DNA of 64,000 nucleotides from Mytilus galloprovincialis (GCF_965363235.1 NC_134847.1:69974935-70038934), one strand, 5' to 3'. Positions 11,105 to 50,890 are shown, counted from the stretch's first letter. Made by a program: numbers and translations. Notes: generated by a model from the letters alone, not told the origin.

Positions 11105-11470
11105 AGTAAAATCTGTTCCATAAAGCAGTCTATCTTGTATCTGGTATCGCTGATGAGTTTATTTACAACCACTGGGTCGATACCACTGCTGGTGGAGTTT
11201 TAATACCCCGAGGGTTTCACAAGCCTGGTAGTCAGTTCTGTGCTGACATGAATTATCATTGATATGGTCATATTTATAAATTAACTGTTCACAAAATAAA
11301 TTTAGAATTTTTGAAATACTAAGGTTTTTTTACTTCAGGAATAGATTATGTTAGCCATATTTGGCACAACTTTTAGTAACTTTGGTCCTCAATGCTCTTC
11401 AACTTCGTACTTTATTTGGCCTTTTTAACTTTTTTTCATATTCATAAATTAAGGAAGCTGGCTAATGTCA
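11105..11470. repeat. Solo, degenerate copy of the 359-bp hammerhead-ribozyme repeat unit (retrozyme-like); ribozyme core not intact
   Basis: Collinear with the 46031-46826 unit (..gctgatgagtttatttacaaccactgggtcgataccactgctggtgg...ccccgagggt...ggaatagattatgttagccatatttggcacaacttttagtaactttggtcctcaatgctcttcaacttcgtactttatttggcc), but it has lost the GAAAC/helix III part. Confidence 0.5.
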
Positions 11471-11869
11471 TGTTTTAAATTTTTGGTCAGATTTTTGGAA
11501 TCCTCTGGTTTTATCCATTTAAATGCCTTGGAAAATTTTGCCCGGTGACCCCCATTTTTCTTTTTGAAAATCTTTTACATGTATAATAATAAGCCATCTG
11601 TAAAAGTCTTATAAAATTTTAATTACTTTTTAACAGTTTTTGAGAACATAGACATGTCAATGATAAAGCTATGAAAAGTCAAGAGAGAAAATTTTCCGGC
11701 CAAAATTTCAATGGCTAATATCTCGAAAACAATCACGGTGACCTATATATTTTTTCGGCTCTTTGGATTCCTTTTTTAATTTCCTATCAATATAAACTAG
11801 TGTTTTGAAAAGTTAATTACTTTGAAACTGAGAAGCGAACTCCCTTAACTGTTTACTGTTAACTGGTCT

Positions 11870-12060
11870 AAGAAGTCAAACTACTGTATAACTAAGACTG
11901 TCAATACTGAGGTTGTGAGTTTGAATCCTGCACGGAGCAGGTGCACTTTACTGCAATCTTAATTGACTTGGGGTTTCTGTTTTTATCAAAATGTAGTTGT
12001 TTCAAGGCACTCTGGCTTCCACCACCAGTAAAAACTGCCACAAAATAGTGTGTTAAACAC
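11870..12060 (+). repeat. SINE-like repeat with a tRNA-like B-box (gagtttgaatcctgca); second copy at 12640-12960
   Basis: Shared gtcaa(t/c)actgaggt..(a/g)agtt(t/c)gaa(t/c)cctgca..aggtgcac..aatcttaattgact...ggcactc(t/a)ggcttcc..cacca..aaaactg(c/a)cac..caaaatag between the two copies. B-box resemblance to GGTTCGAATCC. Confidence 0.4.
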
Positions 12061-12215
12061 CAATCAATCAATCTTTGAAACTATTAAGTTTATGCAATAC
12101 ATGTTTGCATAAAATACTTTCATCATAATATTCAATTGTTATCACTTTAAGCTTTGGCTAGATATTACAGCATGTGCACTCTTGTTAATATCTGATTTTA
12201 GATCTTGAAACTGAT

Positions 12216-12579
12216 ATGTCACCAGAACAAAAGGGTTATGCCAGGTTTATTGATTCAGACGAAGATGCTAATGAATTATTTAGCTTTAAAATTTCTTCAT
12301 ATGCATCATGTGAGGATTTTGAGGAAGATGAAATTCTTGAAGAAGCTACGAGTATGATTTCTGAAGAAGGCCAATATAAGTCAAGCTCTGATGAAGATGT
12401 GCAGATAATGCCATTAGTATTAGATGCTGGATCACTCATGATGAAGGCAGGATTTGCTGGAGATGATCATCCTAGAGCTAATTTCCCAACAGCTGTAGGT
12501 AGACCTAGACATCAAGGGGTAATGGTTGGAATGGGACAGAAGGATGCATATGTTGGATTTGAAGCCTGTGGAAAACCAG
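12216..12579 (+). CDS. First coding exon: acidic N-terminal extension fused to an actin N-terminal fragment (actin residues about 8-62)
   Basis: Genuine ATG at 12216 with an upstream in-frame stop. ...[54 protein letters not shown] is near-identical to conventional actin ([50 protein letters not shown]). Donor G|GTATAA at 12580, phase 1. Confidence 0.6.
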
Positions 12580-12639
12580 GTATAAAACTTTCTGTTTAAC
12601 CATAACGGTTTGATACTGTGTTGATCATAAGGAAATGGG

Positions 12640-12960
12640 TCTACTTTATCACTAGCTAGTCAACACTGAGGTATTAAGTTCAAACCCTGCATTAAACAGG
12701 TGCACAGGACTCTAATAATCTTAATTGACTAGAATTGACAGTTTTCCTAATAATCTTAATTGACTAGAATTGACAGTTTTCCTAATAATCTTAATTGACT
12801 AGAATTGACAGTTTTCCTAATAATCTTAATTGACTAGAATTGACAGTTTTCCTAATAATCTTAGTTGACTAGAATTGACAGTTTTCCTATCTAAGGTCGT
12901 GGTTCTCTTTTGGCACTCAGGCTTCCTTCACCAACAAAACTGACCACCGCAAAATAGCAC
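12640..12960 (+). repeat. SINE-like repeat copy 2, carrying an internal 31-bp minisatellite (12718-12875, about 5 copies of taataatcttaattgactagaattgacagttttcc)
   Basis: See 11870-12060; the tandem units were read directly. Confidence 0.45.
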
Positions 12961-13500
12961 AGAAGTGTTTAAAGTAACTTTAACACCAAAAGAGAAGAGG
13001 GATAAAAAGATGATAAGGAAATAATATTTTGAAATAATACCATAAACAATATATTTTTCTTATTATCTATCCTGTGATGAAAGTCACTTAATATAATACA
13101 TATGAAAATATGGAGATGTGATTTGATTGCCAATATGCAAAGAGACAACTATTATCTATTAAAGTTCAATAAAGGCAAAAGTATGTCCTGCACAAATGAG
13201 AAAAACACCTCATTTTCATGGTTTACTATTTAAAGGTTTTGAACGATTCTACAGTGCACATGCATATTCATGTGGCATGGTTCTTCTTGACTGCATTTAC
13301 ATAGATCATTGATAATGTAAAGTTTCTGTGATACTTGTAGTTAAACCTTTATCTTAAAAACTTCCAATATAAAATCAATCAATGAAGTAGGATAAACCCT
13401 CTTAAGCATAATTGATTGAGATGTGTACCAAATGTCTTTTATGATTCAGTTTGTTGAATTTAGCTTCTCTCTTTATGATATAATTGTTTTTGTCTTTCAG

Positions 13501-13548
13501 CTAAAGGAAAAGAGCTCGAAAAGAAAGAAGTAAAGCAGAGAGGTGCAG
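13501..13548 (+). CDS. Candidate 48-nt micro-exon (AKGKELEKKEVKQRGAG) linking the actin-like exon to the proline-rich exon
   Basis: Acceptor tctttcag at 13499-13500 and donor G|GTAATT at 13549. Only one of three frames is open, and it is the frame demanded by the phase-1 end of exon 12216-12579. It also hands phase 1 to the exon at 17762. Confidence 0.3.
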
Positions 13549-15439: not shown

Positions 15440-15495
15440 TTTTTATACGACCGCAAAATTTGAAAAATTTTTCGTCGTATATTGCTATCACGTTG

Positions 15496-15533
<38 letters not shown>

Positions 15534-17435
15534 CGAATACTTTTAGTTTTCGCACTCTAACTTTAGTAAAAGTGAATGGAAATCTATGAAATTTTAACAC
15601 AAGGTTTATGACCACAAAAGGAAGGTTGGTATTGATTTTGGGAGTTTTGGTCCCAACATTTTAGGAATTAGGGGCCAAAAAGGGCCCAAATAAGCATTTT
15701 CTTGGTTTTCGCACTATAACTTTAGTTTAAGTTAATAGAAATCTATGAAATTTTGACACAAGGTTTATGACCACAAAAGAACGGTTGGGATTGATTTTGG
15801 GAGTTTTGGTCTCAACAGTTTAGGAATTAGGGGCCAAAAAAGGGCCCAAATAAGCATTATTCTTGGTTTTCGCACAATAACTTTAGTTTAAGTAAATAGA
15901 AATCAATGAAATTTAAACACAATGTTAATGACTACAAAAGGAAGGTTGGTATTGATTTTGGGAGTTTAGGTCCCAACAGTTTAGGAATTAGGGGCCAAAA
16001 AGGGACCCAAATAAGCATTTTTCTTGGTTTTCGCACCATAACATTAGTACAAGTAAATAGAAATCTATGAAATTTAAACACAAGGTTTATGACCATAAAA
16101 GGAAGGTTGGTATTGATTTTGGGAGTTTTGGTCCCAACAGAATAAGGGGCCCAAAGGGTCCAAAATTAAACTTTGTTTGATTTCATCAAAATTGAATAAT
16201 TGGGGTTCTTTGATATGCCGAATCTAACTGTCATGACTGTGTATGTAGATTCTTAACTTTTGGTCCCGTTTTCAAATTGGTCTACATTAAGGTCCAAAGG
16301 GTCCAAAATTAAACTTAGTTTGATTTTGACAAAAAATGAATCAGTTAGGTTCTTTGATATGCTGAATCTAAAAAATGTACTTAGATTCTTGATTATTGGC
16401 CCAGTTTTCAAGTTGGTCCAAATCGGGGTCCAAAATTAAACTTTGTTTGATTTCATCAAAAATTGAATAAATGTAGTTCTTTGATATACCAAATCTAACT
16501 GTGTATGTAGATTCTTCATTTTTGGTCCTGTTTTCAAATTGGTCTACACTAAAGTCCAAAGGGTCCAAAATTAAACTTAGTCTGATTTTAACAAAAATTG
16601 AAATCTTGGGGTTCTTTGATATGCTGAATCCAAAAATGTATTTAGATTTTTTATTATGGGCCCAGTTTTCAAGTTGGTCCAAATCAGGATCTAAAATTAT
16701 TATATTAAGTATTGTGCAATAGCAAGTCTTTTCAATTGCACAGTATTGCGCAATGGCAAGAAATATCTAATTGCACAATATTGTGAAATAGCAAATTTTT
16801 TTTTAATTAGAGTTATCTTTCTTTGTCCAGAATAGTAAGCAAGAAATATCTAATTGCAAAATATTGTGCAATAGCAAGATTTTTTTTTAATTGGAGTTAT
16901 CTTTCTTTGTCCAGAATCAACTTAAATCTTTGTTATATACAATATACAATGTATATTCACTTTTTACTACCAACTGATAAATTAAAATAATCTTTACCAT
17001 TCAGTGATAACAAGCAGTTTTTTTACATCTTAATATTTTATGATGTATTTAAATGAGTAGTTATTGTTGCAAACTCCATTAGAAATTTTAATTGAGATTA
17101 GTTTTGGAATAAGGGAAAGGGGGATGTGATTAAAAAAATTGGGTTCAATTTTTCTCATTTGAAATTTCATAAATAAAAAAGAAAATTTCTTCAAACATTT
17201 TTTTGAGAGGATTAATATTCCAACAGCATAGTGAATTGCTCTAAGAGAAAACAAAAATTTTAAGTTCATTAGAACACATTCATTCTGTGTCAGAAACCTA
17301 TGCTGTGTCAACTATTTAATCACAATCCAAATTTAGAGCTGAATCCAGCTTGAATGTTGTGTCCATACTTGCCCCAACCGTTCAGGGTTCAACCTCTGCG
17401 GTCGTATAAAGCTGCGCCCTGCGGAGCATCTGGTT
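15440..17435. mobile_element. About 2-kb composite non-autonomous element, copy A
   Basis: Starts tttttatacgaccgc and ends ...gcggtcgtataaagctgcgccctgcggagcatctggtt. It contains (GTC)12 at 15495-15533, about 4 copies of a roughly 180-bp subrepeat, about 2.5 copies of a roughly 250-bp subrepeat (ggtccaaaattaaact...) and attgcacaatagcaag repeats. It is over 97% identical to 25977-27961. No ORF with any recognisable domain. Confidence 0.7.
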
Positions 17436-17761
17436 GACTTTGTTAAATGAACTAAGGATTAGCATCCAGTGGCAAATATTTCATGCAAATGCATTATGAA
17501 AACAGATAAACATTACTAGTACAATAAAATCCCCGAGTCCATGGCTGATAAATTATAATTAAGCCCTCTGCTATTCCTGTGTTTGCTAGTGAGGTCAGAA
17601 TTATATATTCATGCAAATGTGTAACCTACATATAATATTTATTCATATACTCATATTTATTGAATACACTAGAAAAGGTTGAAGATTATAATTTTTTTAG
17701 AAATATTAAGATACAATATTGAATGAAAAAATAGTTGATTTACAATTTTTGCATTTTGTAG

Positions 17762-18801
17762 ATACTTTGATGAAATATAGCAGGTCTTTAACCTTATCTT
17801 CAGATGAAGATACAATAGAATCTAGTGTACCTGACAAACATCAAGCATTAAAAAAACTATCTTATTCACCAAAAATGTTACCCCTAGTTCAGAAAAAAAA
17901 AATGTCAGAAGAACAACAACTATCAGACATGTTTTCTTTTGGTTCATTAATAAAAATACCACCAACCCAACCAGATGCATCACCACAATTTCAAACCCAA
18001 ATGCGTACTCCCAAACTATTCAGAGGAATGCCACCTTCACAACCACCAAGAGGAATGCATGTTGTTGGCTCTTCATCAGTAAAGTCAGATCCTCCATCGA
18101 TACAAATGTACTCTCCAATGTCTGCTGCACTAGCATTTCCAGAAGCAATATGTGATGAACTGTTGCCACAACAGGTTGGTCCACAGTTTGGAATACCCCC
18201 TCCTCCACCCCCTCTAGCATCATCAAGAGGGATACCACCACCCCCACCGCCTCTTCCATCAAGAGGAATGCCACCTCCAGCATCCCTACAATCAAGAGGA
18301 ATGCCAGTTAAAATTAAATGCTCAGCATCAGGAATGCCACCACTGCATCAACAGGGAAAACCACAACCACCTTTGCAGTCATCAAAACAAATGGACTCTT
18401 TAGTGTCTGGTGCACCACCACCTTCACTACTAAAAGAATTGAATCGTATGCTACCGGAACCAAGGTATGGTCCTCCAAAAGGAATACCACCACCGCCACC
18501 ACCACCAACAGGATTGCCGATTCCAAAAACACCATTTGGTCCTAGGGAAATGGCAAAGAGTAGTTCTTCTCATCTAAAACAAAATCAAGTATTTTCATCA
18601 ACATCACCAAGAGCACAATTACTTTCAGACATTTCAGATGGATCTTCAGCTAAAAAAATGAGTGGTTTAACTGCTCGTGGAGGATCAGCTCGTGTTTTGG
18701 GGAGTATAACAAAACCACTATCAATAATTGAGAAGGATATACCTAGCCAATTAGATTCTGCTGATAGCGTTCAAAAACAAAGTAATACTGAAGAATTAAT
18801 G
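17762..18801 (+). CDS. Large exon encoding a proline-rich (formin FH1-like G[IM]PPPPPP x4) region plus a WH2 actin-binding motif (RAQLLSDISDGSSAKK, WIP/verprolin-type)
   Basis: Acceptor ttttgtag at 17760-17761. About 1.04 kb open frame ..TLMKYSRSLTLSSDEDT...FGIPPPPPPLASSRGIPPPPPPLPSRGMPPP...GIPPPPPPPTGLP...SPRAQLLSDISDGSSAKKMSGLTARGG...NTEELM. Donor ATG|GTAAGT at 18802. The entry phase matches the upstream exons. The ORF-track start at 17719 is TTG. Confidence 0.65.
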
Positions 18802-19550
18802 GTAAGTAAAAAGATACCTGTACTTATAATATGAATGTCAAATGAATGATTAATTTGAACCAATTATAGATAATGACAAATGAAAAAGTTAGTTTAATTT
18901 GAACCAATTTTAGATAATATCAAACAAATAGTTCCGATTTTGAAAACTTAGTTTAAAAGTGTTGTTTTTACGATTTGCAAAATCTCATTTCCACCATCAG
19001 ATATATATGATATTATGATTCCTTGGGTTGCGAGTGTTTTCTATTTTAAAAGGAAATCTAAACTTCTTGTTCTTTTTCACATCGATTTATGTAATAGCAA
19101 AGAACAACTACTATCCTATATATGTCAGCATTTATATACTTGGCAAACGACTGTTCAGTCAACTTTGAATCCCTGCCATTGTTGTGATATGCTGAATAGA
19201 TTTGAACTGGTAGATGCGAAGCAGTCAGCTGTGAACAATAAAAACTCTTGTTAAAACTTATTTCAGTCACATTGTTTAACATGGAGCAAAAGCTCTCACC
19301 TCACTGCAAGTTTAAGACCTTAATAGCACTGGTTTATTGGAAATTCTTTGCAAACTAAATTAATGATTATGCCACAACTGTAAAAGAACAAAGCCATTCA
19401 GTAATATCAATAAAATAAATCACAGGCACATAGATCGAGATATATATGTTATATAACTTGGCAGGCAATGCTATATGTATAGGGCAAAAAATTAGATACA
19501 CTTTGTTAGATGAAAAACCTCATTTTTAAAATGATTTCTTAATTTTCTAG

Positions 19551-23275: not shown

Positions 23276-23438
23276 GAATAAATATAAAAATGGCTTGCCA
23301 TAGCTATTCTGATTAGATCATATTTTAGATATTAAAACTTTATCAAAAGCCTTATTATGATTTAGATGATATACATTCTGATTGTGTAACAGTTTTATTA
23401 CAAAATAATAAATAAATCTTGATATCATATATTTGTAG

Positions 23439-25976: not shown

Positions 25977-27961
25977 TTTTATACGACCGCAAATTTTGAA
26001 AAAATTTTCGTCGTATATTGCTATCACGTTGGCGTCGGCGTCGTCGTCGTCATCCGGCGTCCGAATACTTTTAGTTTTCGCACTCTAACTTTAGTAAAAG
26101 TGAATGGAAATCTATGAAATTTTAACACAAGGTTTATGACCACAAAAGGAAGGTTGGTATTGATTTTGGGAGTTTTGGTCCCAACATTTTAGGAATTAGG
26201 GGCCAAAAAGGGCCCAAATAAGCATTTTCTTGGTTTTCGCACTATAACTTTAGTTTAAGTTAATAGAAATCTATGAAATTTTGACACAAGGTTTATGACC
26301 ACAAAAGAACGGTTGGGATTGATTTTGGGAGTTTTGGTCTCAACAGTTTAGGAATTAGGGGCCAAAAAAGGGCCCAAATAAGCATTATTCTTGGTTTTCG
26401 CACAATAACATTAGTTTAAGTAAGTAGAAATCAATGAAATTTAAACACAATGTTAATGACTACAAAAGGAAGGTTGGTATTGATTTTGGGAGTTTAGGTC
26501 CCAACAGTTTAGGAATTAGGGGCCAAAAAGGGACCCAAATAAGCATTTTTCTTGGTTTTCGCACCATAACGTTAGTATAAGTAAATAGAAATCTATGAAA
26601 TTTAAACACAAGGTTTATGACCATAAAAGAAAGGTTGGGTTTGATTTTGGGAGTTTTGGTCCCAACATAATAAGGGGCCCAAAGGGTCCAAAATTAAACT
26701 TTTGTTTGATTTCATCAAAATTGAATAATTGGGGTTCTTTGATATGCTGAATCTAACTGTCATGACTGTGTATGTAGATTCTTAACTTTTGGTCCCGTTT
26801 TCAAATTGGTCTACATTAAGGTCCAAAGGGTCCAAAATTAAACTTAGTTTGATTTTGACAAAAAATGAATCAGTTAGGTTCTTTGATATGCTGAATCTAA
26901 AAATGTACTTAGATTCTTGATTATTGGCCCAGTTTTCAAGTTGGTCCAAATCGGGGTCCAAAATTAAACTTTGTTTGATTTCATCAAAAATTGAATAAAT
27001 GGGGTTCTTTGATATACCAAATCTAACTGTGTATGTAGATTCTTCATTTTTGGTCCTGTTTTCAAATTGGTCTACACTAAAGTCTAAAGGGTCCAAAATT
27101 AAACTTAGTCTGATTTTAACAAAAATTGAAATCTTGAAGTTCTTTGATATGCTGAATCCAAAAATGTACTTAGATTTTTTATTATGGGCCCAGTTTTCAA
27201 GTTGGTCCAAATCAGGATCTAAAATTATTATATTAAGTATTGTGCAATAGCAAGTCTTTTCAATTGCACAGTATTGCGCAATGGCAAGAAATATCTAATT
27301 GCACAATATTGTGAAATATCAAATTTTTTTTTAATTAGAGTTATCTTTCTTTGTCCAGAATAGTAAGCAAGAAATATCTAATTGCAAAATATTGTGCAAT
27401 AGCAAGATTTTTTTTTAATTGGAGTTATCTTTCTTTGTCCAGAATCAACTTAAATCTTTGTTATATACAATATACAATGTATATTCACTTTTTACTACCA
27501 ACTGATAAATTAAAATAATCTTTACCATTCAGTGATAACAAGCAGTTTTTTTACATCTTAATATTTTATGATGTATTTAAATGAGTAGTTATTGTTGCAA
27601 ACTCCATTAGAAATTTTAATTGAGATTAGTTTTGGAATAAGGGAAAGGGGGATGTGATTAAAAAAATTGGGTTCAATTTTTCTCATTTGAAATTTCATAA
27701 ATAAAAAAGAAAATTTCTTCAAACATTTTTTTGAGAGGATTAATATTCAACAGCATAGTGAATTGCTCTAAGAGAAACAAAAATTTTAAGTTCATTAGAA
27801 CACATTCATTCTGTGTCAGAAACCTATGCTGTGTCAACTATTTATTCACAATCCAAATTTAGAGCTGAATCCAGCTTGAATGTTGTGTCCATACTTGCCC
27901 TAACCGTTCAGGGTTCAACCTCTGCGGTCGTATAAAGCTACGCCCTGCGGAGCATCTGGTT
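25977..27961. mobile_element. About 2-kb composite non-autonomous element, copy B
   Basis: Collinear with 15440-17435 over its whole length, including the GTC microsatellite (shorter here) and all subrepeats. Flanked on both sides by copies of a roughly 130-bp local repeat (tctcttactttagtttgcctcaaccaaatgttatgaaac) at about 25830 and 27975, also at 24255 and 28195. Confidence 0.7.
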
Positions 27962-37439: not shown

Positions 37440-37700
37440 TGATAACCAAACTAGCATTTTATTTTCAACGCCCCTGAGTTGTTTCTACTGGTATAAAATG
37501 TCATCTTTTGTCTTGTCTATCCTCTGTCATTGTTAACAATGTTTTCTCAATGCTCTTCAACTTTGTACTTTATTTGGCCTTTTTAACTTTTTTGGATTCG
37601 AGCATCACTGATGAGTCTTTTGTAGACGAAACGCGCGTCTGGCGTATATACTAAATTCAGTCCTGGTATCTATGATGAGTTTATTCATTTCACTTTCACA
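37440..37700 (+). repeat. Solo partial copy of the hammerhead-ribozyme (retrozyme-like) repeat unit with an intact-looking ribozyme
   Basis: ..ctcaatgctcttcaactttgtactttatttggcctttttaac..gagcatcaCTGATGAGtcttttgtagaCGAAACgcgcgtctggcgta: core motifs and both closed helices present. Confidence 0.6.
37598..37647 (+). ncRNA. Type-I hammerhead ribozyme motif (solo)
   Basis: CUGAUGA; helix II GUC/GAC with loop UUUUGUA; GAAAC; helix III ACGC/GCGU with loop GCGUCUG; GUA cleavage triplet. Confidence 0.55.
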
Positions 37701-41017: not shown

Positions 41018-42332
41018 CTGTAACATATTTGTAACACTCAGAAACGTGTCCTTCCCCCTAAACGTGTCCGATTCCCCCAAACGTGTCCACATCGACGTCA
41101 CTGAACTGCAAAAACATGTCTAGTTGTCAAAGGGCGCCAAATCGTGTCATTTGTATAAACGCTCAAACGTGTCCATTTTTAAAATAAACCCCCAATCTTG
41201 TCCAATCCCCCAAACGTGTCCATATCAAGCTTTTTATTTTACTGGAACTATCATTAGTGTTCATATTATAAAAACGTAGGTTATTTGTGTGGTTTTTTTT
41301 ATTATTATTATTGTATACTCATTTTACGATCTTTTACTATTTCATTAAAAGATCAGAATAAATTACTTAAATTCTTTTTCTATGTTTGTAGCATTTCACT
41401 CTTTATAATGTGCCATAAGTTGTATTTTGGAAGGCAACATTTTTTTTTAATTTCTGCAACTTTTATTTGAAACGGCCTCTATATTACATAACAGACATTG
41501 AAGTAGTTTCTTACTGATGTCATAAACAAATCGGTCTTTACTCGCATTTATTTTTTTTTAGATTAAAATCCCAACTAGTGGTCATCCCAAATAACCGTAA
41601 AAATTAATGCCCAATTTTAAACTCCCGATTTGATGATAGAACCTATCTACAGTATATATCGTTAATATGATATCGTTCAAATAACGAATGAAATATTTGG
41701 CACTGGACGTTATTTCTCTTGTTCGTGTGTCTTTAGTGACGCTCGTAACCTAAAATTTATTAAAAATTAGAACTGTTAAAAAAAGATGGGAGGTCAATTC
41801 GACTGAAAGCCCATCGTGCAATATTCTGATTAATATAAAATGCATCATCGGAGTTTATTAGTATAAAATAATTTACATAGTAAACGATTAATTGAACTGT
41901 ACTAGAATTATTTGTATGCTCGCTTTAAATGAGCATGAAATACTTGCAACTGGACAATAAGCAAATTCAGTCAAAAGTTAATGCATATGTTACATATTAA
42001 ATTTTCAGTATTGATAATCATTAACAACCGTCATTGAACAAATTAATGCTAATAAATTACCACTTCATCAACTGTGTCCCCCATCATAGAACTGCCGTGA
42101 ACGTTATTGATGTCGCGTTTAGGACATGTATTAGCTCTAAAAGACGCGAGACGTTCTGTCGTTTAAAAGTGGACACGTTTGGGCGAATAACAATAGTATC
42201 GGGCACGTTTGGGGGTTCTGAAATCGGACACGTTTGAGGAACATTGAATATTATGGACATGTTTGGGGAGAATAGACACGTTTGGGGGAATCGGACACGT
42301 TTGGGGGGGAAGGACACGTTTGGGAGTGTTAC
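41018..42332. mobile_element. 1.3-kb non-autonomous TIR DNA transposon-like element with at least 6 subterminal repeats per arm of CCCCAAACGTGTCC
   Basis: The left end gtaacactcagaaacgtgtcc and the right end ggacacgtttgggagtgttac are reverse complements. Arms at about 41018-41230 and 42140-42332 are rich in aaacgtgtcc / ggacacgttt. Both flanks read atattt (41012-41017 and 42333-42338), a putative 6-bp TSD. Confidence 0.65.
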
Positions 42333-44319
42333 ATATTTAAGTGGTCACATTTTGGACATCTTCAGAACTTCATTTGTCTTTATACAGATTGTCAATTGTA
42401 TTATGTATTATATTGTTTAACATTTTTGTTCATAAAACACAAATTACTGCTGCTAGATAGTACAAAAATATTCACTTTTAACTATGTTTTGATTGCTTAA
42501 CTGTGATTTATATATAATTGTTATGTTTTAATTTATCTAAATTGGTTTTGGTATTGAACCTATTATAACCATGTATCTATTATTAACTGATGGTAATGAT
42601 GCAATTATATTAAATTTTTGTTAATCAGTTTCAGTTACAAAATGCCCCTACTATCATGGATCTCTGTTTAATCTAATCTAAAGTCACTTGAAACAAACAG
42701 TTTCACCTGATACATAAAGATTTCACTACCAAATAGGTATTTGAAGGGCTAAAGATGATATTAAATTCACTTAATATCATGTTTTATAGTCATATTTTTA
42801 GCAGTAAGTTTATTAAGTTTTTTTCCTGTGATGAAAATGTTTTTGTTATATCTATTTTTAGCATTTAACAAATTGCTTTATACTTTGTGATAGAAAAAAA
42901 GGTTTTGGTTTTGTGATAATGATTTGTATTATGGTTTAATATATTTAATAAAAAAAAGGATAGGATTAAATTTGTTATTCTAATTCTGCCACTAAATGGA
43001 AAATGAAAATAACATTTTTATAAATTTGTACATGTATAAAGCACATGGTCAGATTTCATGAATAGTTTTAGTTGTAGTTTTTATCATCAAGTAAATAAAT
43101 GTGTTTAATGAAAGTTTAGTCAAAAGAAAATGCAGAAACACTATAAAAGTGGGGCGGATTCAGAATAAACTGAAAACATCATGGCTAAGAACGAAAAAGA
43201 CAAACAGACAAATAATAGTACATGCCATAATATAGGAAACTTAAGGCTTAGCAACAAGAACCCCATCAAAAACTAGGGATTATCTTAGGTGCTCCAAAAT
43301 GATAAGTAGATACTGCTCCACATAACTGTCAACTAACTTGTGATGGCATCCGTAAAATTTACGAAGGAATGCTTTTAACTTTACCATTTGAAACTCTTTG
43401 TTTTAAAAAATCTTCCTTATGAACAGCAACCCTCTACGAAAGAAATCATGGTAGGAAATACAAGCACGAGCATAGATCGTATCAATTGGGAGGCATATAC
43501 TCTGTATGCAGGCGCTGCTGGAATGTTGCTACATAGAAATGGAAAGTTTACAATTGGGAAGCTGAAATAATCTCTATTGTCGAAAAGTTTTGTTTCTGTC
43601 AATTTCTAGATGTAAGTTGAGAACTGAGGCAGACTTAGCTGTATCCGTTATCTCTAGCTCGACAGGATAGATGCATTTAACATAGTTATCAAATTTGACA
43701 CAATTTCCCACTAAACGCTTAACTGCTGGCTGAGAAGGATGTGAAATGTCAAATTTAAAGAAACTATTTGCATATCTGTCAACTTCTCAAAAAATCAAAG
43801 GGGAGATTGTTCCCTCAACAGGACCTAATGCATCTCTTATATATGACATAAGCAATTATTAACAGAATCATATCTAGCATACTTTGGTTTTGAAAAATTG
43901 TATTTGTGCTATAATTTCATTGAATCTTCTTTAATTGGCTGTTTTGATATATTATCAGTTTCAATGATGAGTTCACTTGAAATTACAGAGTTCTGTATCA
44001 TCGACTAATGTAGAAATAATGAAATCTTGAAGAGACTAACACAGGAATAGTTTATTTTGTTCTATTTGACTTTAAAACAAGATTTTATTATAAACTAAGC
44101 AATGAGGGAACAATAATCCGCTGAACACATTTGGAAATTAAAGTTTTGATGGTAGTCAAAATATTATTCTTTACAAACAAGTTTATTGTGATTCATCTAA
44201 AAAAATCACGAATTTCCTTATAATTGCATAACAAATATTTTATCAACAAAATTTTATTTTGAATGGCAAAATGTAAATATTTGTAGAAGTTACAAATTAA
44301 ATTGAATTTTAGTTAGTTG

Positions 44320-44480
44320 CATTTGCACAACTTTTTGGGAATTTTGTGTTCTCAATACTCTTCAGTTTTGTACTTGTTTCGATCTAAAACTGCATGTATT
44401 TTGATCTGAGTGTCACTGATGAGTCTTATGTAGAAGAAACGCGCGTCTGACATATTAAATTATAATCCTGGTACCTTCGA
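44320..44480 (+). repeat. Fragment of the retrozyme-like unit with a mutated hammerhead (helix II G:A mismatch, helix III disrupted)
   Basis: gtgtcaCTGATGAGtcttatgtagaaGAAACgcgcgtctgacat. Confidence 0.5.
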
Positions 44481-45229
44481 TAACTATTCACAGAAGCAAT
44501 ATCTAAGGAAATCTGTGAGTAAAATTTTAGACCATGACCAGCATAAAATTTAAATCATAATGATCAGATCAAAATTTCCATTTACTTGGATTCAATGAAC
44601 AATTAATCTAAATGACAATCAGCCTCATGTAGCACACATACCCCATTAAAATGAGCATGGATAGAATTTAAGCTATTGTTGATTTATTTTCTTCTGATTG
44701 TACCAATTGTCGTGGATTGGAGAGAATCATATTCTCGTGGATGTTTGATCTTGCAGATTTGACAAAGTCTACATACAAATGTGGAAAAGTTCTAATCCGC
44801 TGAACATTTTGATATGTTGTTTCACCTTTACACATGAAATGACCCCAGCAAATGATATCCTAAGAATGTTTTAGAATTTACAACATTTAACTGAAATACT
44901 GTAAAAAAAAACCACTTCAGTTTGGGTAAACATGTAGTTATGTGGATAATTGTGACCTCAACAGATTGATCTCTGCCCGTTTAATGTTCAGTGGCAATTG
45001 TTTCATGCATATTAAGGTTGATGTAAATATTTGGTACATTGGCCAAATGTAGGATTTGCCTGTACATGCTGTAAGGAGATGTAGAATGTCAGCTCTCGAA
45101 AACCACAGATGAAAACTTTCAAAATGAAGCTCTTAACAAAATATGCAGATGGTAGGAACAATGTCACTGACCTATTTAATCAAATTAAGCTACCAACAAA
45201 AGCCAGATTCAAGCACATTTTCTGTTGAA

Positions 45230-45320
45230 AGTTCACTGATGAGTCTTTTGTAGACGAGACGAGCGTCTGGTGTAAATATAACATTTCAATCCTGGTATCT
45301 ATGATGAGTTTATTCATAGC
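45230..45320 (+). repeat. Degenerate fragment of the retrozyme-like unit (GAAAC mutated to GAGAC)
   Basis: ttcaCTGATGAGtcttttgtagacgagacgagcgtctggtgta. Confidence 0.45.
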
Positions 45321-46384
45321 TAAAATTAAAAAAACAAGATTAAGCTGGATACATTAGATGACATTATAATAGTGTGTTGTATTATAGTTTAGCTACCTTG
45401 GTTGAGTTGACTATGGAATAATATATAAAATTCCTAGATGCAACCAGAAAAAAAATAATGAATTAGCGAATCTGAAAATTTACATTACTTTAATGCTATA
45501 GTTTTTGATGGTGATGTATCGTTTAAAACAGTTAAAGTATGACTTTAAGAAGAAGCGTGCATTTGAAAAGGAAAACACACCTAGTGGGCAACGCTTTCCA
45601 CGTTTTATACACTCAACACCCGACTAAAAGTCTCAAGGAATTCAAAGATGAGAAGATACATGGTTAATTCTACGAACCCGAAATTCAGAAGACAGCCTAA
45701 GACGTGAACTGCATTTAAAAGATCTAGCGAAAGCTATACAGGAACATAGTCTGTATATTGGCATATAATATGTTTTTCCCTTTTACACCGACCCACGGAA
45801 TCCGCGATCGCCTATGTAAATTCCATCCCGAAGTATCAGCTAGGAATTCTACACCAAATGAAGTTTATACCCTCAGTATATTTTTTTGGATCAAACAATC
45901 AGACTACAGTTAAAACAACTCATCAAGCTGATTTGTCTTAACCGTTCGATAAGACTACTAGTATGAAGGTTACTTAGACGTTGAACAGCAATCCATCATT
46001 AGATCATGCTTTGTCTGAATTGATAAACGGTTATATGAGTCTTATGTAGACGAAACGCGCGTCTGGCGTACTAAATTAAAATCCTGGTACCTTTGATAAC
46101 TATTTACACCACTGGGTCGATGCCACTGCTGGTGGACGTTTCGTCCCCGAGGGTATCACCAGCCCAGTTGTCAACACTTAGGTGAAGAAATGAATATCAA
46201 TAATGTGGTCATTTATTTTTATAAATTTCCTGTTTACAAAACTTTGAATTTTTCGAAAAACTAAAGATTTTCCTATCCCAGGCAAAGATTACCTTAGCCG
46301 TATTTGGCACAACTTTTTGGAATTTTGGATCCTCAATGCTCTTCAACTTTGTACTTGTTTGGCCTTATAAATTCTTTGATATGA

Positions 46385-46430
46385 GCGTCACTGATGAGTC
46401 TTATGTAGACGAAACGCGCGTCTGGCGTAC
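46385..46430 (+). ncRNA. Type-I hammerhead ribozyme (complete core), unit 2 of the array
   Basis: CUGAUGA at 46391-46397; helix II GUC-UUAUGUA-GAC; GAAAC at 46411-46415; helix III ACGC-GCGUCUG-GCGU; cleavage after GUA at about 46429. Confidence 0.65.
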
Positions 46431-46743
46431 TAAATTAAAATCCTGGTACCTTTGATAACTATTTACACCACTGGGTCGATGCCACTGCTGGTGGACGTTT
46501 CGTCCCCGAGGGTATCACCAGCCCAGTAGTCAACACTTAGGTGTTGAAATGAATATCAATAATGTGGTCATTTATTTTTATAAATTTCCAGTTTACAAAA
46601 CTTTGAATTTTTCGAAAAACTAAGGATTTTCTTATCCCAGGCATAGATTACCTTAGCCGTATTTGGCACAAATTTTTGGAATTTTGGATCCTCAATGCTC
46701 TTCAACTTTGTACTTGTTTGGCTTTACAAATACTTTAATATGA

Positions 46744-46790
46744 GCGTCACTGATGAGTCTTATGTAGACGAAACGCGCGTCTGGCGTACT
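46744..46790 (+). ncRNA. Type-I hammerhead ribozyme (complete core), unit 3 of the array
   Basis: Identical motif; CUGAUGA at 46750-46756 and GAAAC at 46770-46774. Confidence 0.65.
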
Positions 46791-46935
46791 AAATTAAAAT
46801 CCTGGTACCTTTGATAACTATATACGTCTTGATCTCGCAGCAGTATGTCTCTATTCAAGACAAAATATTGTCCAGGTTTTTATGCTGTTCTTTCAATTTC
46901 TTATTCGCTTGTCTCTTCAGATTTTTCTTGCATGT

Positions 46936-47247
46936 TTACATCAGCTCTTGCCAATTCTTTGGAAACTAGCCTTTCGTCACCAGCTAATCAGCTACTTTCC
47001 TTCGGAAAGTTTACGAATATAATGGTTGTACACATTTCGTTTCATCATCCACACTGGCCCTGTGAGCTGTCAAATTGATGAAGCAAGTGATTACATCAGC
47101 TCTTGCCAATTCTTTGGAAACTAGCCTTTCGTCACCAGCTAATCAGCTACTTTCCTTCGGAAAGTTTACGAATATAATGGTTGTACACATTTCGTTTCAT
47201 CATCCACACTGGCCCTGTGAGCTGTCAAATTGATGAAGCAAGTGATT
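46936..47247. repeat. 157-bp tandem duplication (x2)
   Basis: acatcagctcttgccaattctttggaaactagcctttcgtcaccagctaatcagctactttccttcggaaagtttacgaatataatggttgtacacatttcgtttcatcatccacactggccctgtgagctgtcaaattgatgaagcaagtgatt is repeated exactly. Confidence 0.85.
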
Positions 47248-48423
47248 TTCATCTTGAGGTCGTCGAACGTATTAGTCAGGTTCCTTCTTCGCTCCCTCAA
47301 TAAAATCCAAACTTGTCGATCTAACATGCTTTATTTGACGACATTAAACTTGGTGTTTTTCATTTTAATAATGTCTATATATATGTTTTCGATAAAGATA
47401 AAGCTCCTATTAAAGTTTTACTCTGCTACGAATTTCGTTCCTTTCTTCTTTGTTGTAATGTACTATTATATCATTTGTTTATCTATTTTATAATTATCTG
47501 TTATGAGTGTTCCTATGTTTGTTTGTACTGTATTACTGCCACGTAGTGTTGTCATTCAAGCGGTGTTTGCAATATTGACACATAAGCTGGAGGTTTGGCT
47601 AACCATAAGACCAGGTTCAACTCACCATTTTGTCTAAAAAAATGTCCTGTACTGAGGAATATGGCAGTTGTTATTTTAGTCTGTTTCTATGTGTGTTAAC
47701 ATTAGAATTTGAAATGTTGGTGTTCATTGTATTTTGTTGTTTCTTTCCTCCTATATTTCACCAAGAGCTATCGTATCTAGAATGAGTTTTTTTAATACGC
47801 TAGATACATTTGTTTTAGTTTGCTACCCGGATTTGTTTTTGCTTAATCGAACTATGAATATTAAACAGCGGTATACTTTGTCTTTATCTGTTTCTAGTTT
47901 GGACGTCAACGCTCTTGCAGATGCATGTGTTCCATGATATTGCTGAACACCGAATGGTTTATAAGTTTGAAAAAGTTTTTCTAAGAGTCGGTCTATGCCT
48001 TGGCGTGAAGACTTGTGTGCATGTTGATACACATTTTGAGCCATGAAGACTCCTCGAATCCGATAACTGATGTGGTTGATCAAAGTCAATTGTCATTGCT
48101 AAGCACTGTTTCAAATTGTTGTTATGGAGTATACACTTTTTGCAGTTATTCAGGTTATTCAGTTCGTCCACCTTGTTGATATCTTTGTTCTCGTTCTCAT
48201 TTATTCCTATATTCCCATGCTCCAACATAGAATCGTCATGTTTGAAGTGGAATTCTTGGGGTAATCGATGTCGCATTGAACCATGTACCCCTTCTCGTGA
48301 TAGTTTTAGGGGACGACCATTTGATATTCGGTGGGAGGGGGGGGGGGAATGGTGGCAGGAGGATTTTGAAAATAAATAACTCAGCCTTGATACTCACAAA
48401 AATAATAATAAAAGTATAAATAC

Positions 48424-49611
48424 TAGGGATGTCAAAAGATCAGAAATTTAATACTCGGATACTCGGTCAAGATACTCGAGTACTCGCGAGTAATCGGATG
48501 AATCTTAAACGTCTATTGAAAAATTTAGATTTAAGGTGGGATGCAGTGTTTTTGTTATTACCTTTCATAAACATAAGTCAAACGTACTTCAAACATAGCT
48601 TGCTCCTCTGTTTTTTGTTTGTAGTCAATTTAACAATGAATTACCGACCGCCGTTTCTACAAATAACCTATCATAATACCAATCATTGCTTGTGTACGTG
48701 TTCATGAACCAAATTTCAATAAAATCAAAAATATTTGAATATAAAGTCCGACACAGTATACAATATATAATATGTATCATCTGTTCCTGAGGAGTTGGTA
48801 TCTTTAATGATACGACTTGTCCGTTAATTTGTCAACAAGAATATTGGACTTCAAATTACATGTGCTTTTTCGTGCTGCACAGTCTTACTTGTTCTGTGTT
48901 GTTTGGTTTTATTTGGCTCCATCGTTTTTCTGATTTTCTTTTATTTTTTTGCCACGACGTTGTCAGTTTATTTTCGACATTTGAGTTTGAATGTCGCTCT
49001 CGTAATTTCGTCTATCTTTTAATTGTAAATTAAACAATTATAGTTAAATTTCAAATATTGTGTAATTAGATTAATTTAAATGTAAATCGCATACCAATCA
49101 CGTTTACATAGAAGTCTTGATTAACAAACAAAGATAAGTTTTACGGCTTGTGATGAGTTAATTATTAATCCATGAAAGTGTTGATCTGTGTACAAACACC
49201 GTTAAATATGACTGTCTCCAATCAGTTGCGTATGGTTTATCGCAGGTCATTTTGTTCTTGTTTAGAAATATGATATGGTCAATAATTTCAGACGAAAGAC
49301 TGTTTGACTTTCCATTTTTTTTGTTACAAGTAATGCACATGAAAACATTCCCGCGGAATAAAAGAACTTTGCTGGTACTACTATAACAAATAGAAGCCTC
49401 ATAATAATCATATTTATGCTCTTAATTGGTTTTATTTAAATAAAGTATTACGAATGTGATATTTCAACGGTACTAAAGTGAGTGGAAATGTGAAGAGAAC
49501 ATATCTCAAGATATACAACAGGCAAACGAGTAACCGAGTACTAAAACTGTACTCGAGTACTAGGTCTTCCGATCGAGTACCCGAGTACTCGAGTACTCGT
49601 TGCCATCCCTA
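48424..49611. mobile_element. Non-autonomous hAT-superfamily element (1188 bp) with Ac-like TIR TAGGGATG.CAA and a perfect 8-bp TSD ATAAATAC
   Basis: Left tagggatgtcaaaag and right cgttgccatcccta. The TSD ataaatac sits at 48416-48423 and 49612-49619. Subterminal gagtactcg / cgagtact repeats in both arms. No transposase ORF. Confidence 0.8.
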
Positions 49612-50689
49612 ATAAATACTATTTAAATATACTTGAAATGTTTGAAAATTGGTTTCATTTAACTTTAGGTATATTTTCTCAGGAACTCTTACCTCGCGTT
49701 TATTACAAGGCCGGTCTCCATACCAACTTATGTTCACGGCGAGTGCCTTGCAAGAAGCAAGCTCTGTTCTCCCTCAGACGTAGCCCCTGATTTTTCGGGA
49801 TCAATGTTTCTTATTTATTTGTCATTTGTTCATTTACCCTTCTGTATTCTGTTTGTGTTGCATTCATTTTGTAATTGAGCAATTTTGTTATTAACCTGAT
49901 CATTAGGTCTTTTGATGTTGTCCCTAGAAACTTAAGTCTTACACTGAATCTATACATTTTGCTGTGAGACCAAGAAAGGGTCTGGGGAACACCCAGATAG
50001 CATGATTTTGCATCATTTGTTCTACATCTTCTGTGCCTTCAGTGGCTCCAAAATCCTTTAAAAAAATGTTTGCCTCGCTCCGCTTGGCTTGTGGAAACAT
50101 GTTTTCCAAGACTAGTTACAACCAAACTTTGATACTGTGTATTTATGCAATACGTACATGTATATGCAGTTGGGAATATAGAAGATTCATTTCTGCAGAG
50201 GATGATGATTAATTCTGATTAAATGGTACATAACGTCTTGACTATACATGTATAATTTTATAATAAACAAATACTTTTAAAATTGTATATTTTTGAATAT
50301 CAAAGCTATAGTTGTGAAAATAAATAATCAGTCCCTTGCTTTAATGAAAATAAAAAATCTTGCTTCAATACTGCAGAAAATAGATTACCTGTCCGCTTAG
50401 TTTACAAAAATAAATAACCGATCAAAAACAAATCCTATTGTCCCCCCACCCCACCCCGAATATTTTAAAATGGTCGTCCACTTAGTAGTTTAGAATTTCT
50501 TCAATATCCGCAGGTTCCGTCTGCTCAAAATATCCTGTAGGTAGGGGTTGTGTCATAATCCATCTCTACAGGTAGGTTTGATAATTGTTCGGTTGTGTTT
50601 TGTCGTAGTCGGTTATGTACGGTCTGTTATCCTTGTTCTGTCGATAAAATACTATGGCCACGACTTATCTGGTGGCTTGTTTACCTCAG

Positions 50690-50890
50690 GAATAGATTAC
50701 CTTAGATGTATTTGGCAAAACTTTTAGGAATTTTTGGTCCTCAATGCTCTTCAACTTCGTACTTTATTTGGCCTTTTATAACATTTTTGATTTGAGCGTC
50801 CCTGATGAGTATTTTGTAGACGAAACGCGCGCCTGGCGTAAATATTAAATTTTATTCCTGGTATCTATGATGAGTTTATTTCCAAACATC
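50690..50890 (+). repeat. Solo copy of the retrozyme-like unit with a near-intact hammerhead (50793-50841)
   Basis: ..ctcaatgctcttcaacttcgtactttatttggcc..gagcgtccCTGATGAGtattttgtagaCGAAACgcgcgcctggcgtaa; helix II has one A:G mismatch. Confidence 0.55.

What the first reader, a model, noticed from the sequence alone, without database searches (positions are those of the whole stretch)
11105..50890. Six dispersed copies of the ribozyme repeat in 40 kb, forming a decay series
Sequence shows the copies at 11105-11470, 37440-37700, 44320-44480, 45230-45320, 46031-46826 and 50690-50890.
- Intact core: the array units and the 37598 copy.
- Single helix II mismatch: 50793 and 44416.
- GAAAC mutated to GAGAC: 45235.
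- Truncated after CUGAUGAG: 11150.

Most solo copies keep the same upstream segment (ggcacaacttttag..ctcaatgctcttcaacttygtactttatttggcc) and a downstream ctatgatgagtttatt motif. Inference: the whole unit is mobilised, presumably by retrotransposition in trans (for example by LINEs such as the one at 57058), rather than being a local satellite only.
Basis: partly seen in the sequence, partly recalled or inferred. Interest (0 to 1): 0.65.

Follow-up and report, generated by a model that had tools for sequence, protein, structure and literature searches.

The report
Dispersed copies of known mussel retrozyme
The six repeats are copies of the hammerhead-ribozyme "retrozyme" already published for Mytilus mussels; one 2.2-unit array could still release an RNA circle, and four of the other five are front-truncated, dead retrocopies that all stop at the same 3' position as the array.

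Summary
Six loci, all on the + strand, are homologous to one 353-359-bp unit that carries a type-I hammerhead (Rfam RF00163, 33.0 bits against a 34 cut-off, E 2.6e-5).

It is not new. The copies match the published Mytilus galloprovincialis genomic retrozyme clone Mg353 at 83-93%.

Several details are wrong:
- The 11150 "CUGAUGAG" is the downstream motif, not the ribozyme, and that copy has no hammerhead.
- The 50793 copy has three defects, including cleavage-site GUC to GCC.
- The copies belong to two subfamilies, so they are not one decay series.

The mobilisation idea is supported. No flanks are shared, 5' ends are scattered, and 23 of 29 insertions stop within one stretch of at most 16 nt, 40-46 nt past the cleavage site (5 of 6 in the window; the rest on 17 mussel contigs). 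This pattern indicates target-primed reverse transcription.

The neighbouring LINE shows no sign of being the partner: no shared 3' tail, and no poly(A). A Penelope-like element, as the literature proposes, fits better but was not found. The fixed 3' end, and occasional 16-35-nt tails before the target duplication, are a small addition.

The parts
46035..46825 (+). Retrozyme array, subfamily B: a 5'-truncated first unit that starts inside the hammerhead at ATGAG, followed by two full 359-bp units. It ends at the canonical 3' terminus ...GATAACTATATAC.
   Evidence: TRF gives period 359, 2.2 copies, 96% matches. BLAST and nhmmer agree. The sequence was read.
46385..46428 (+). Complete type-I hammerhead. 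The core is CUGAUGA...GAAA, helix II is GUCU/AGAC, helix III is the palindrome ACGCGCGU, and cleavage falls after C46422 (GUC|UGG).
   Evidence: Rfam RF00163, 33.0 bits, E 2.6e-5, model positions 1-45 of 45.
46744..46787 (+). Second complete type-I hammerhead, identical to the first. Cleavage falls after C46781.
   Evidence: Rfam RF00163, 33.0 bits.
46035..46069 (+). Partial hammerhead at the 5' edge of the array. It lacks the 5' strand of helix I and the CUG of the core, so it is not expected to cleave on its own.
   Evidence: Rfam partial match, model positions 10-39, 17.6 bits; sequence.
46423..46781 (+). The only segment in the window flanked by two complete ribozymes: a 359-nt monomer that could be excised and circularised. 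GC is 38%.
   Evidence: Coordinates follow from the two cleavage sites. The fold gives -84.2 kcal/mol, z -1.68. GC.
37540..37687 (+). Solo copy, subfamily A, unit positions 208-353, 93% identical to Mg353. The core is intact, helix I has a G to A mismatch, and the 3' end is canonical (...GATGAGTTTATTCA).
44313..44492 (+). Solo copy, subfamily B, unit positions 191-359 (+5). The hammerhead has GAC to GAA (C11.1 to A) and a compensated helix I. The 3' end is canonical.
   Evidence: (28.5 bits).
44493..44522 (+). A 30-nt tail of non-retrozyme sequence between the canonical 3' end and the downstream copy of the candidate target-site duplication. AATTTTAG lies at 44305-44312 and again at 44523-44530.
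   Evidence: The tail shares no word of 8 nt or more with the unit.
45233..45316 (+). Solo copy, subfamily A, unit positions 273-353. It is 5'-truncated within the 5' strand of helix I. The core is mutated (GAAAC to GAGAC) and helix III carries C to A. The 3' end is canonical.
50680..50881 (+). Solo copy, subfamily A, unit positions about 148/165-353, 88% identical to Mg353. The hammerhead has three changes, including GUC to GCC. The 3' end is canonical.
11137..11436 (+). Hammerhead-less copy, subfamily A, 83% identical to Mg353. It starts about 25 nt before the unit boundary, crosses it (GAGTTTATT|TACAACC) and stops just upstream of the ribozyme. Its 3' end is not canonical.

Best explanation
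These are copies of the non-LTR retrozyme family already described in Mytilus mussels. It is a non-coding unit of 353-359 nt that carries a type-I hammerhead whose helix III is a palindrome.

Shown here:
- sequence identity with the published clone;
- a full-length hammerhead match;
- two subfamilies;
- no shared flanks;
- preferential conservation of the ribozyme;
- a fixed 3' end with scattered 5' ends.

Inferred mechanism:
1. Tandem copies are transcribed.
2. Two adjacent ribozymes cut out a monomer that a host ligase circularises. In this window only 46423-46781 qualifies.
3. A reverse transcriptase supplied in trans copies a multimeric or circular template by target-primed reverse transcription.
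4. That synthesis always starts at one site 40-46 nt downstream of the cleavage site, and often falls off early.

The result is either partial tandems (the array) or 5'-truncated fragments shorter than one unit that hold a single ribozyme. Such fragments cannot form circles and decay; these are the solo copies.

The helper is most likely a Penelope-like element, not the APE-type LINE at 57-63 kb. That last step is the weakest inference.
For: Identity:
- Mg353 from the supplement of PMC7229834 aligns with all copies, at 93% for the 37-kb copy and 83-88% for the other subfamily-A copies.
- Unit length and GC (359 bp, 38%) fit the published 350-390 bp and under 50% GC.

Ribozyme:
- RF00163 matches over its full length.
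- ACGCGCGU is self-complementary, as read directly from the sequence.

Independent insertions:
- No flanks are shared.
- Two subfamilies are present.

Anatomy typical of target-primed reverse transcription:
- 5 of 6 window copies end at ...GATGAGTTTATT or ...GATAACTAT plus 0-6 nt (P about 1e-6).
- 23 of 29 insertions do so when 17 mussel contigs are added (P about 4e-26).
- 11 of 15 do so among copies that were not used to find the contigs (P about 2e-12).
- 5' ends range from unit position 83 to 308.

Selection on source copies:
- The hammerhead diverges 5.1% from consensus against 11.5-12.2% in the adjoining repeat sequence.

Features resembling Penelope-like elements:
- The ribozyme sits near the 3' end, and the copies show partial tandems and heavy 5' truncation. 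All of these are described for these elements in PMC8557442.
- In 3 of 18 insertions the sequence that abuts the 5' junction recurs 24-36 nt past the 3' end (2% in mismatched controls, P 0.005), leaving a non-retrozyme tail of about 16-35 nt, like the 30-40-bp tail of Penelope-like elements.
- One head-to-head inverted pair was seen (L010).
Against: - No Penelope-like reverse transcriptase or GIY-YIG reading frame was found in the window or on the fetched contigs. The helper is therefore not identified, and no similarity to a pseudo-LTR was tested in mussel.
- Clear target-site duplications are missing from most insertions.
- The tail plus duplication pattern rests on three cases.
- 6 of 29 copies, including the 11-kb copy, have non-canonical 3' ends that need secondary deletions or rearrangements to explain.
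- The hammerhead scores 1 bit below Rfam's gathering score.
- There is no covariation within this family.
- Cleavage and circle formation were not tested for these particular copies.
- Part of the excess divergence outside the hammerhead reflects differences between the two subfamilies rather than decay.
Confidence: 0.72

Rival explanations
1. This is a local satellite spread by DNA-level processes only, such as segmental duplication, unequal crossing-over or reintegration of excised DNA circles. No RNA intermediate would be involved.
For: - The copies lie within 40 kb and all on one strand.
- Three of them sit within 2.5 kb of each other (44.3-46.8 kb).
- The array is a tandem repeat.
Against: - No flanking sequence is shared.
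- The copies belong to two subfamilies.
- Fragments shorter than one unit with one common end and scattered other ends are not what unequal crossing-over or random circle breakage produces (23 of 29 common ends, P about 4e-26).
- A similar density, 8-9 extra copies in 78 kb, is seen on unrelated contigs. The clustering may therefore be simply the genome-wide density.
Confidence: 0.05
2. The copies are SINE-like elements mobilised by an APE-type LINE such as the one at 57.7-63.2 kb.
For: - An apparently intact LINE, with ORF1 carrying a PHD finger and ORF2 carrying APE endonuclease and reverse transcriptase, lies 7 kb away.
- A fixed 3' end with 5' truncation is equally typical of LINE-driven retroposition.
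- PMC7229834 leaves LINEs open as helpers.
Against: - There is no similarity between the unit or its 3' tail and this LINE, including the 757 nt after the ORF2 stop.
- The insertions have no poly(A) or microsatellite tail.
- The hammerhead near the 3' end, the partial tandems and the tails are traits of Penelope-like elements.
Confidence: 0.12
3. The short solo copies are not retrozyme copies. They are 5'-truncated 3' ends (pseudo-LTR fragments) of an autonomous Penelope-like element that shares its terminal region with the retrozyme.
For: - Most insertions of Penelope-like elements are 5'-truncated and keep only the terminal repeat, and in Xenopus the pseudo-LTRs are homologous to retrozymes.
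- The shortest copies (45 kb at 84 bp; 37 kb at 148 bp) hold only the ribozyme-proximal part, so they cannot be told apart from such fragments.
Against: - The longer truncated copies stay collinear with the retrozyme unit far upstream of the ribozyme and do not run into coding sequence. Examples are the 50-kb copy from unit position about 148, L010 from position 83 and L011 from position 97.
- Arrays cross the terminus straight into the next retrozyme unit.
- No reading frame of a Penelope-like element was seen next to any copy.
Confidence: 0.1

Closest known systems
Mytilus galloprovincialis non-LTR retrozyme (genomic clone Mg353; Cervera & de la Pena 2020, PMC7229834)
   Same: - The unit sequence is the same: 83-93% identity for subfamily A, and the subfamily B array is clearly homologous.
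- The type-I hammerhead is the same, and the unit length of 353-359 bp falls within the published 350-390 bp.
- GC content is low and the units are arranged in tandem.
- The two hammerhead variants here differ in loop 2 (UCUUUUGUAGA against UCUUAUGUAGA) and beyond helix I, which agrees with the paper's 'HHR A' and 'HHR B'.
   Different: Nothing essential differs. The papers read here describe tandem repeats and their RNA circles. They do not describe the junction anatomy of dispersed partial copies, and PMC7761336 states that no conserved motif points to the helper element.
Penelope-like elements and their hammerhead-bearing pseudo-LTRs (PMC8557442; bioRxiv 10.64898/2026.07.22.740005)
   Same: - A hammerhead lies close to the 3' end.
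- Copies show heavy 5' truncation and head-to-tail partial tandems.
- An inverted 5'-truncated neighbour occurs occasionally.
- There is an extra tail of some tens of bp at one end.
- Target-site duplications are often not discernible.
   Different: - There is no reading frame.
- The hammerhead here is canonical and has a helix III, whereas those of Penelope-like elements are usually minimal variants.
- Insertion into (TA)n was not seen.
- Sequence homology to a mussel Penelope-like element was not tested.
Newt satellite 2 and Schistosoma Sm-alpha hammerhead repeats
   Same: These are tandem or dispersed repeats of about 300 bp that carry a type-I hammerhead with a weak or palindromic helix III. 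According to the reviews read here, such ribozymes can act as dimers.
   Different: They share no sequence with the mussel unit. They are different lineages of the same class.
LINE-dependent SINEs
   Same: They are non-coding, short and dispersed, with a fixed 3' end and variable 5' truncation, and they are mobilised in trans.
   Different: - The mussel unit has no tRNA, 5S or 7SL head and no poly(A) or microsatellite tail.
- It shares no 3' tail with the neighbouring LINE.
- It contains a self-cleaving ribozyme.
- It forms tandem multimers.

Membership tests
Type-I hammerhead ribozyme (Rfam RF00163) | Conserved catalytic core CUGAUGA ... GAAA with an NUH cleavage triplet | tested here: met
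   - The array copies and the 37-kb copy have CUGAUGA, GAAA and GUC.
- The 45-kb copy has GAGA in place of GAAA, and the 50-kb copy has GCC in place of GUC.
- The 44-kb copy loses the G10.1-C11.1 pair.
Type-I hammerhead ribozyme (Rfam RF00163) | Three helices around the core, with helix I open (type I topology) | tested here: met
   The match covers the full model, positions 1-45 of 45. In 22 copies, 90% of cells form standard pairs, against 17-51% when the partners are slid. That control is weak, because the structure was derived from these sequences.
Type-I hammerhead ribozyme (Rfam RF00163) | Score at or above Rfam's gathering threshold (34 bits) | tested here: not met
   The best score is 33.0 bits, E 2.6e-5, and the gathering-threshold scan gave no hit. 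The shortfall is 1 bit. The same ribozyme sequence was shown to self-cleave in vitro in PMC7229834.
Type-I hammerhead ribozyme (Rfam RF00163) | Compensatory base changes that support the helices | tested here: inconclusive
   Only one double change was found (helix I of the 44-kb copy), which is no better than shuffles. The copies are too similar to each other for this test.
Type-I hammerhead ribozyme (Rfam RF00163) | Self-cleavage activity | not testable with these tools
   Activity was published for the near-identical Mg353 clone (kobs about 0.1 per min), not for these copies.
Metazoan non-LTR retrozyme | Tandem repeats of 150-450 bp, each unit carrying a type-I hammerhead | tested here: met
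   The array has a 359-bp period and 2.2 copies, with a hammerhead in each unit. Arrays are also present on L002, L010, L011 and L017.
Metazoan non-LTR retrozyme | Sequence homology to a published family member | tested here: met
   The copies are 83-93% identical to Mg353.
Metazoan non-LTR retrozyme | Low GC (under 50%) and non-coding | tested here: met
   GC is 38%. The unit holds only stop-to-stop frames of 76 aa or less, and none of the 48 database relatives of the longest frame carries a Pfam domain.
Metazoan non-LTR retrozyme | Expression as circular RNA of monomer length | not testable with these tools
   This was published for mussel tissues. In the window, only 46423-46781 is flanked by two complete ribozymes.
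Non-autonomous element mobilised by a Penelope-like element | Fixed 3' end with frequent 5' truncation and partial head-to-tail tandems | tested here: met
   23 of 29 insertions share the 3' end, and 5' ends range from unit position 83 to 308.
Non-autonomous element mobilised by a Penelope-like element | [quoted passage not shown] | tested here: inconclusive
   In 3 of 18 insertions the sequence abutting the 5' junction recurs 24-36 nt past the 3' end, leaving a tail of about 16-35 nt (P 0.005). One inverted pair was seen on L010, but its two copies belong to different subfamilies.
Non-autonomous element mobilised by a Penelope-like element | Sequence similarity of the 3' region to the pseudo-LTR or 3' end of an autonomous Penelope-like element in the same genome | not tested
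   No mussel sequence of such an element was available. None is present in the window or on the fetched contigs.
LINE-dependent SINE | 3' tail shared with the partner LINE, or a poly(A) or microsatellite tail | tested here: not met
   The LINE at 57.7-63.2 kb shows no similarity to the unit. None of 22 insertion 3' ends has an A-rich or microsatellite tail. Other LINE families of the genome were not tested.

The most novel reading that the evidence does not exclude
Mussel retrozyme insertions have a precise 3' terminus, ...CCTGGTAYCTWTGATRASTWT plus 0-6 nt, lying 40-46 nt downstream of the ribozyme cleavage site. They also show scattered 5' truncation, and sometimes a 16-35-nt non-templated tail before the target-site duplication.

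If this holds genome-wide and has not been reported, reverse transcription starts at a defined internal site of a circular or multimeric template, not at the end produced by ribozyme cleavage. The terminal 40-90 nt, including the hammerhead, would then be the recognition module for the helper reverse transcriptase.

That would give a direct way to identify the autonomous partner in invertebrates. PMC7761336 calls this undeducible, and the 2026 preprint left invertebrates unexamined.
Probability: 0.45. Interest if true: 0.5.

Novelty: already known. Interest (0 to 1): 0.27.

Why it matters
As it stands, this is a correct spotting of a published element family, so it adds little.

The junction analysis gives a modest, testable handle on an open question: which enzyme mobilises animal retrozymes, and from which point on the RNA. 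If the fixed terminus holds genome-wide, searching mussel Penelope-like elements and LINEs for the same 3' end would name the partner. It would also show that the ribozyme-proximal 3' module, rather than the cleavage-generated RNA end, is what reverse transcription starts from.

The copy density is also worth noting. The window holds about 1 copy per 10 kb, and the unrelated contigs held 8-9 further copies, besides those used to find them, in 78 kb. This suggests that truncated copies may far outnumber the roughly 5000 ribozyme motifs counted in 2020. The estimate is rough, because those contigs were chosen for holding a copy.

Tried and rejected
- The Rfam gathering-threshold scan of the whole window found nothing. 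The hammerheads appeared only in the E-value scan.
- Compensatory-change analysis on 22 hammerheads was uninformative: one double change, no better than shuffles.
- An unanchored search for target-site duplications gave only weak enrichment (7 of 18 with a shared word of at least 8 nt, against 17% in controls). Most insertions show no clear duplication. Only the tightly anchored test was significant.
- A search for a Penelope-like helper failed. Pfam scans of 13 of the window's 28 reading frames of at least 85 aa found only the LINE and an actin fragment. Gene tables of 12 fetched contigs showed a Pao LTR element, a 7tm receptor, a faint B-box hit and adh_short fragments, but no RVT plus GIY-YIG.
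- The supplement of PMC8557442, which would hold consensus sequences of Penelope-like elements, is not held as text.
- The origin of the 3' tails is unexplained. They share no word of 8 nt or more with the unit and have no convincing nearby template.
- The monomer fold is only marginally more stable than shuffles (z -1.68), so I make no claim about a rod-like structure.
- A fuzzy-regex scan timed out and was replaced by blastn-short.
- I considered a second half-ribozyme or a C/D-box snoRNA at the ATGATGAG motif and rejected both. The only Rfam hit was SNORD50 at E 8.2.

Full report
**1. What is there**

The window holds one tandem array at 46035-46825, with a 359-bp period, 2.2 copies and 96% matches. 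Each full unit carries the sequence GCGUCA-CUGAUGA-GUCUUAUGUAGAC-GAAA-CGCGCGUC|UGGCGU.

A gathering-threshold Rfam scan of the whole window returned nothing. An E-value scan of 44-51.2 kb returned Hammerhead_1 (RF00163) over the full model at 46385-46428 and 46744-46787: 33.0 bits against a gathering score of 34, E 2.6e-5. It also gave 28.5 bits at 44410-44453 and a partial match at 46035-46063.

Three searches each find the same six loci, all on the + strand, and nothing else:
- BLAST of the unit against the window;
- BLAST with two subfamily consensus sequences;
- an nhmmer profile.

The refined extents are 11137-11436, 37540-37687, 44313-44492, 45233-45316, 46035-46825 and 50680-50881. The 23-nt 3'-tail motif alone occurs 8 times against 0.00 expected.

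**2. It is a published element**

The supplement of Cervera & de la Pena 2020 (PMC7229834) prints a Mytilus galloprovincialis genomic retrozyme clone, Mg353. That clone contains the same hammerhead. Both are therefore plain internal retrozyme sequence.

| Copy | Subfamily | Identity to subfamily reference (A = Mg353, B = first full array unit) |
|---|---|---|
| 37 kb | A | 93% |
| 50 kb | A | 88% |
| 45 kb | A | 85% |
| 11 kb | A | 83% |
| 44 kb | B | 82% |
| array (second full unit) | B | 97% |

Subfamily B has the tail ...CCTTTGATAACTAT and loop 2 UUAUG. This fits the paper's two ribozyme variants.

The paper reports about 5000 hammerhead motifs, units of 350-390 bp, in-vitro self-cleavage and abundant circular RNA in mussel tissues. 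The unit here is 359 bp with 38% GC. The window is thus from a Mytilus-type mussel, and the element is already known.

**3.

- **11150 copy.** It is not 'truncated after CUGAUGAG'. Its gCTGATGAGtttatt is the homologue of ctATGATGAGtttatt. The copy begins about 25 nt before the unit boundary, crosses it, and stops just before the ribozyme, so it has no hammerhead.
- **50793 copy.** It has three changes: A to C before CUGAUGA, helix II C to A, and GUC to GCC at the cleavage site.
- **44416 copy.** It loses the core-adjacent G10.1-C11.1 pair, but has a compensated helix I (GUGUCA/UGACAU).
- **37598 copy.** It has an intact core but a helix I mismatch.
- **45235 copy.** It has GAGAC as stated, plus a helix III change, and is cut within helix I.

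Because two subfamilies are involved, the copies are not one decay series.

Only 46423-46781 is flanked by two complete ribozymes, so only that segment could give a circle.

**4. Independent insertions, not duplications**

Pairwise BLAST of each copy with 1.5 kb of flank on each side shows no similarity outside the repeat.

The second test, no preferential conservation of the ribozyme, is not met either. In an alignment of 23 copies:
- the hammerhead diverges 5.1% from consensus;
- the retrozyme sequence on either side diverges 11.5% and 12.2% (Fisher P 7e-10);
- the 11 core bases diverge 2.4%.

Part of the difference outside the hammerhead is between subfamilies. Compensatory analysis is uninformative, with one double change that is no better than shuffles.

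**5. Junction anatomy**

I permuted the unit so that it ends at ...GAGTTTATT (subfamily A) or ...GATAACTAT (subfamily B). Five of the six window copies then end there, plus 0-6 nt. Their 5' ends lie at unit positions of about 148, 191, 208, 273 and 291.

To see whether this holds elsewhere I fetched mussel DNA from public assemblies:
- five contigs from a scan for the ribozyme sequence;
- twelve contigs found through database 'proteins' that are translations of a retrozyme pseudo-ORF.

Neither route selects on what lies 3' of the terminus.

| Set of insertions | Ending in the same stretch of at most 16 nt | P under a uniform null |
|---|---|---|
| All with a visible 3' end | 23 of 29 | about 4e-26 |
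| Copies not used to find the contigs | 11 of 15 | about 2e-12 |
| Window only | 5 of 6 | about 1e-6 |

5' ends range from unit position 83 to 308, and arrays simply read through the terminus into the next unit.

The terminus lies 40-46 nt downstream of the ribozyme cleavage site. It is therefore not the end of a self-cleaved RNA. A common 3' end with variable 5' truncation is the classical signature of target-primed reverse transcription; this rests on established knowledge of LINE, SINE and Penelope-like insertions. There is no poly(A) or microsatellite tail.

**6. Target-site duplications and tails**

Most insertions show no clear duplication. In a tightly anchored test, however, the 7-8 nt that abut the 5' junction recur 24-36 nt beyond the canonical 3' end in three insertions:
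- the 44-kb copy, with AATTTTAG at 44305-44312 and 44523-44530;
- L006, with TCTTAGAA;
- L008, with AAACTCA.

That is 3 of 18 against 2% in mismatched controls, P 0.005. A fourth insertion (L007) has ATTTTCAG directly abutting both ends.

The intervening 16-35 nt resemble neither the unit nor nearby DNA. This looks like the 30-40-bp 'tail' described for insertions of Penelope-like elements in PMC8557442, but it rests on few cases.

L010 also shows a head-to-head inverted 5'-truncated copy 27 bp from a 1.5-unit copy. Because the two belong to different subfamilies, this may be two separate events.

**7. Which helper?**

It is real and apparently intact in its reading frames, with ORF1 carrying a PHD finger and ORF2 carrying APE endonuclease and reverse transcriptase. 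It shares nothing with the unit or its tail, including the 757 nt after the ORF2 stop.

The literature favours Penelope-like elements:
- they carry type-I hammerheads near their 3' ends, form partial tandems and co-occur with retrozymes;
- a July 2026 preprint shows that Xenopus retrozymes are homologous to the pseudo-LTRs of these elements, and states that invertebrates were not examined.

The anatomy found here fits that view. I found no reading frame of a Penelope-like element in the window or on the fetched contigs, and I had no mussel consensus to compare with. The helper assignment therefore remains an inference.

**8. Verdict**

The finding is a correct recognition of a known mobile element family, with some errors of detail and an unsupported choice of helper. 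The fixed 3' terminus and the occasional tails are a small addition that I did not see described in the papers I could read. They would make the helper question directly testable in a full genome.

The apparent clustering, six copies in 40 kb, may just be the normal density. Unrelated contigs held 8-9 further copies in 78 kb. Because those contigs were chosen for holding one copy, local clustering cannot be excluded.

Noticed in passing
window 57746-63243 (+), with 5' UTR from about 57050: An apparently intact non-LTR retrotransposon: ORF1 of 674 aa with a PHD finger, overlapping ORF2 of 1216 aa with APE endonuclease and reverse transcriptase. It sits between inverted blocks of a 184/368-bp satellite (53980-54852 and 56143-57049, whose short repeats AATGACAGGACCG and TCATTCGGTCCTG are near reverse complements). 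Its 3' UTR holds (ACAGGTA)n-like repeats near 63915-63940.
   Followed up: partly
window 12216-12599 (+): A reading frame of 127 aa matches the N-terminal part of actin (Pfam PF00022, E 4.5e-11, profile positions 4-54). It is probably an actin exon or a pseudogene fragment, about 800 bp downstream of the hammerhead-less retrozyme copy.
   Followed up: no
window 46936-47247: A 155-bp unit repeated exactly twice at 100% identity, starting 110 bp downstream of the retrozyme array. It looks like a very recent tandem duplication. Any relation to the array is unknown.
   Followed up: no
window 15546-16801 and 26074-27445: Two copies, about 10.5 kb apart, of the same composite repeat: a 161-bp unit repeated 3.7 times, then 262-bp and 135-bp units, then 35-bp repeats. 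This is probably another tandem-repeat-bearing mobile element.
   Followed up: no
window 41042-41089 and 42253-42324: Short tandem repeats AAACGTGTCCATTCCCCC and ATGGACACGTTTGGGGGA are approximate reverse complements of each other and lie about 1.2 kb apart. They could be the terminal inverted repeats of a DNA transposon.
   Followed up: no
window 51648-51741: A T-rich homopolymer-like run of 94 nt (78% matches), 770 bp downstream of the 50-kb retrozyme copy.
   Followed up: no
window 46822-46825; L001, L005, L014, L015 insertion ends: In subfamily B the terminal copies often read ...CTATATAC, whereas all internal unit junctions read ...CTATTTAC. The last few bases may come from the target or from a distinct master-copy terminus, rather than from read-through of the template.
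   Followed up: partly
L010 679-1508: A 5'-truncated subfamily-A copy on the minus strand lies head-to-head, 27 bp from a 1.5-unit subfamily-B copy. This resembles the inverted arrangement of Penelope-like elements, but with two different subfamilies.
   Followed up: partly
L006 3753-8054: An intact-looking Pao/BEL-type LTR retrotransposon polyprotein of 1433 aa (RVT_1, Pao_retrotransp, integrase) and a 7tm_1 receptor gene lie on the same mussel contig as a retrozyme copy.
   Followed up: no
window 17719-18834 (+): The longest reading frame outside the LINE (371 aa) has no Pfam match. It overlaps proline-rich CCACCCCCACC tandem repeats at 18190-18306.
   Followed up: no
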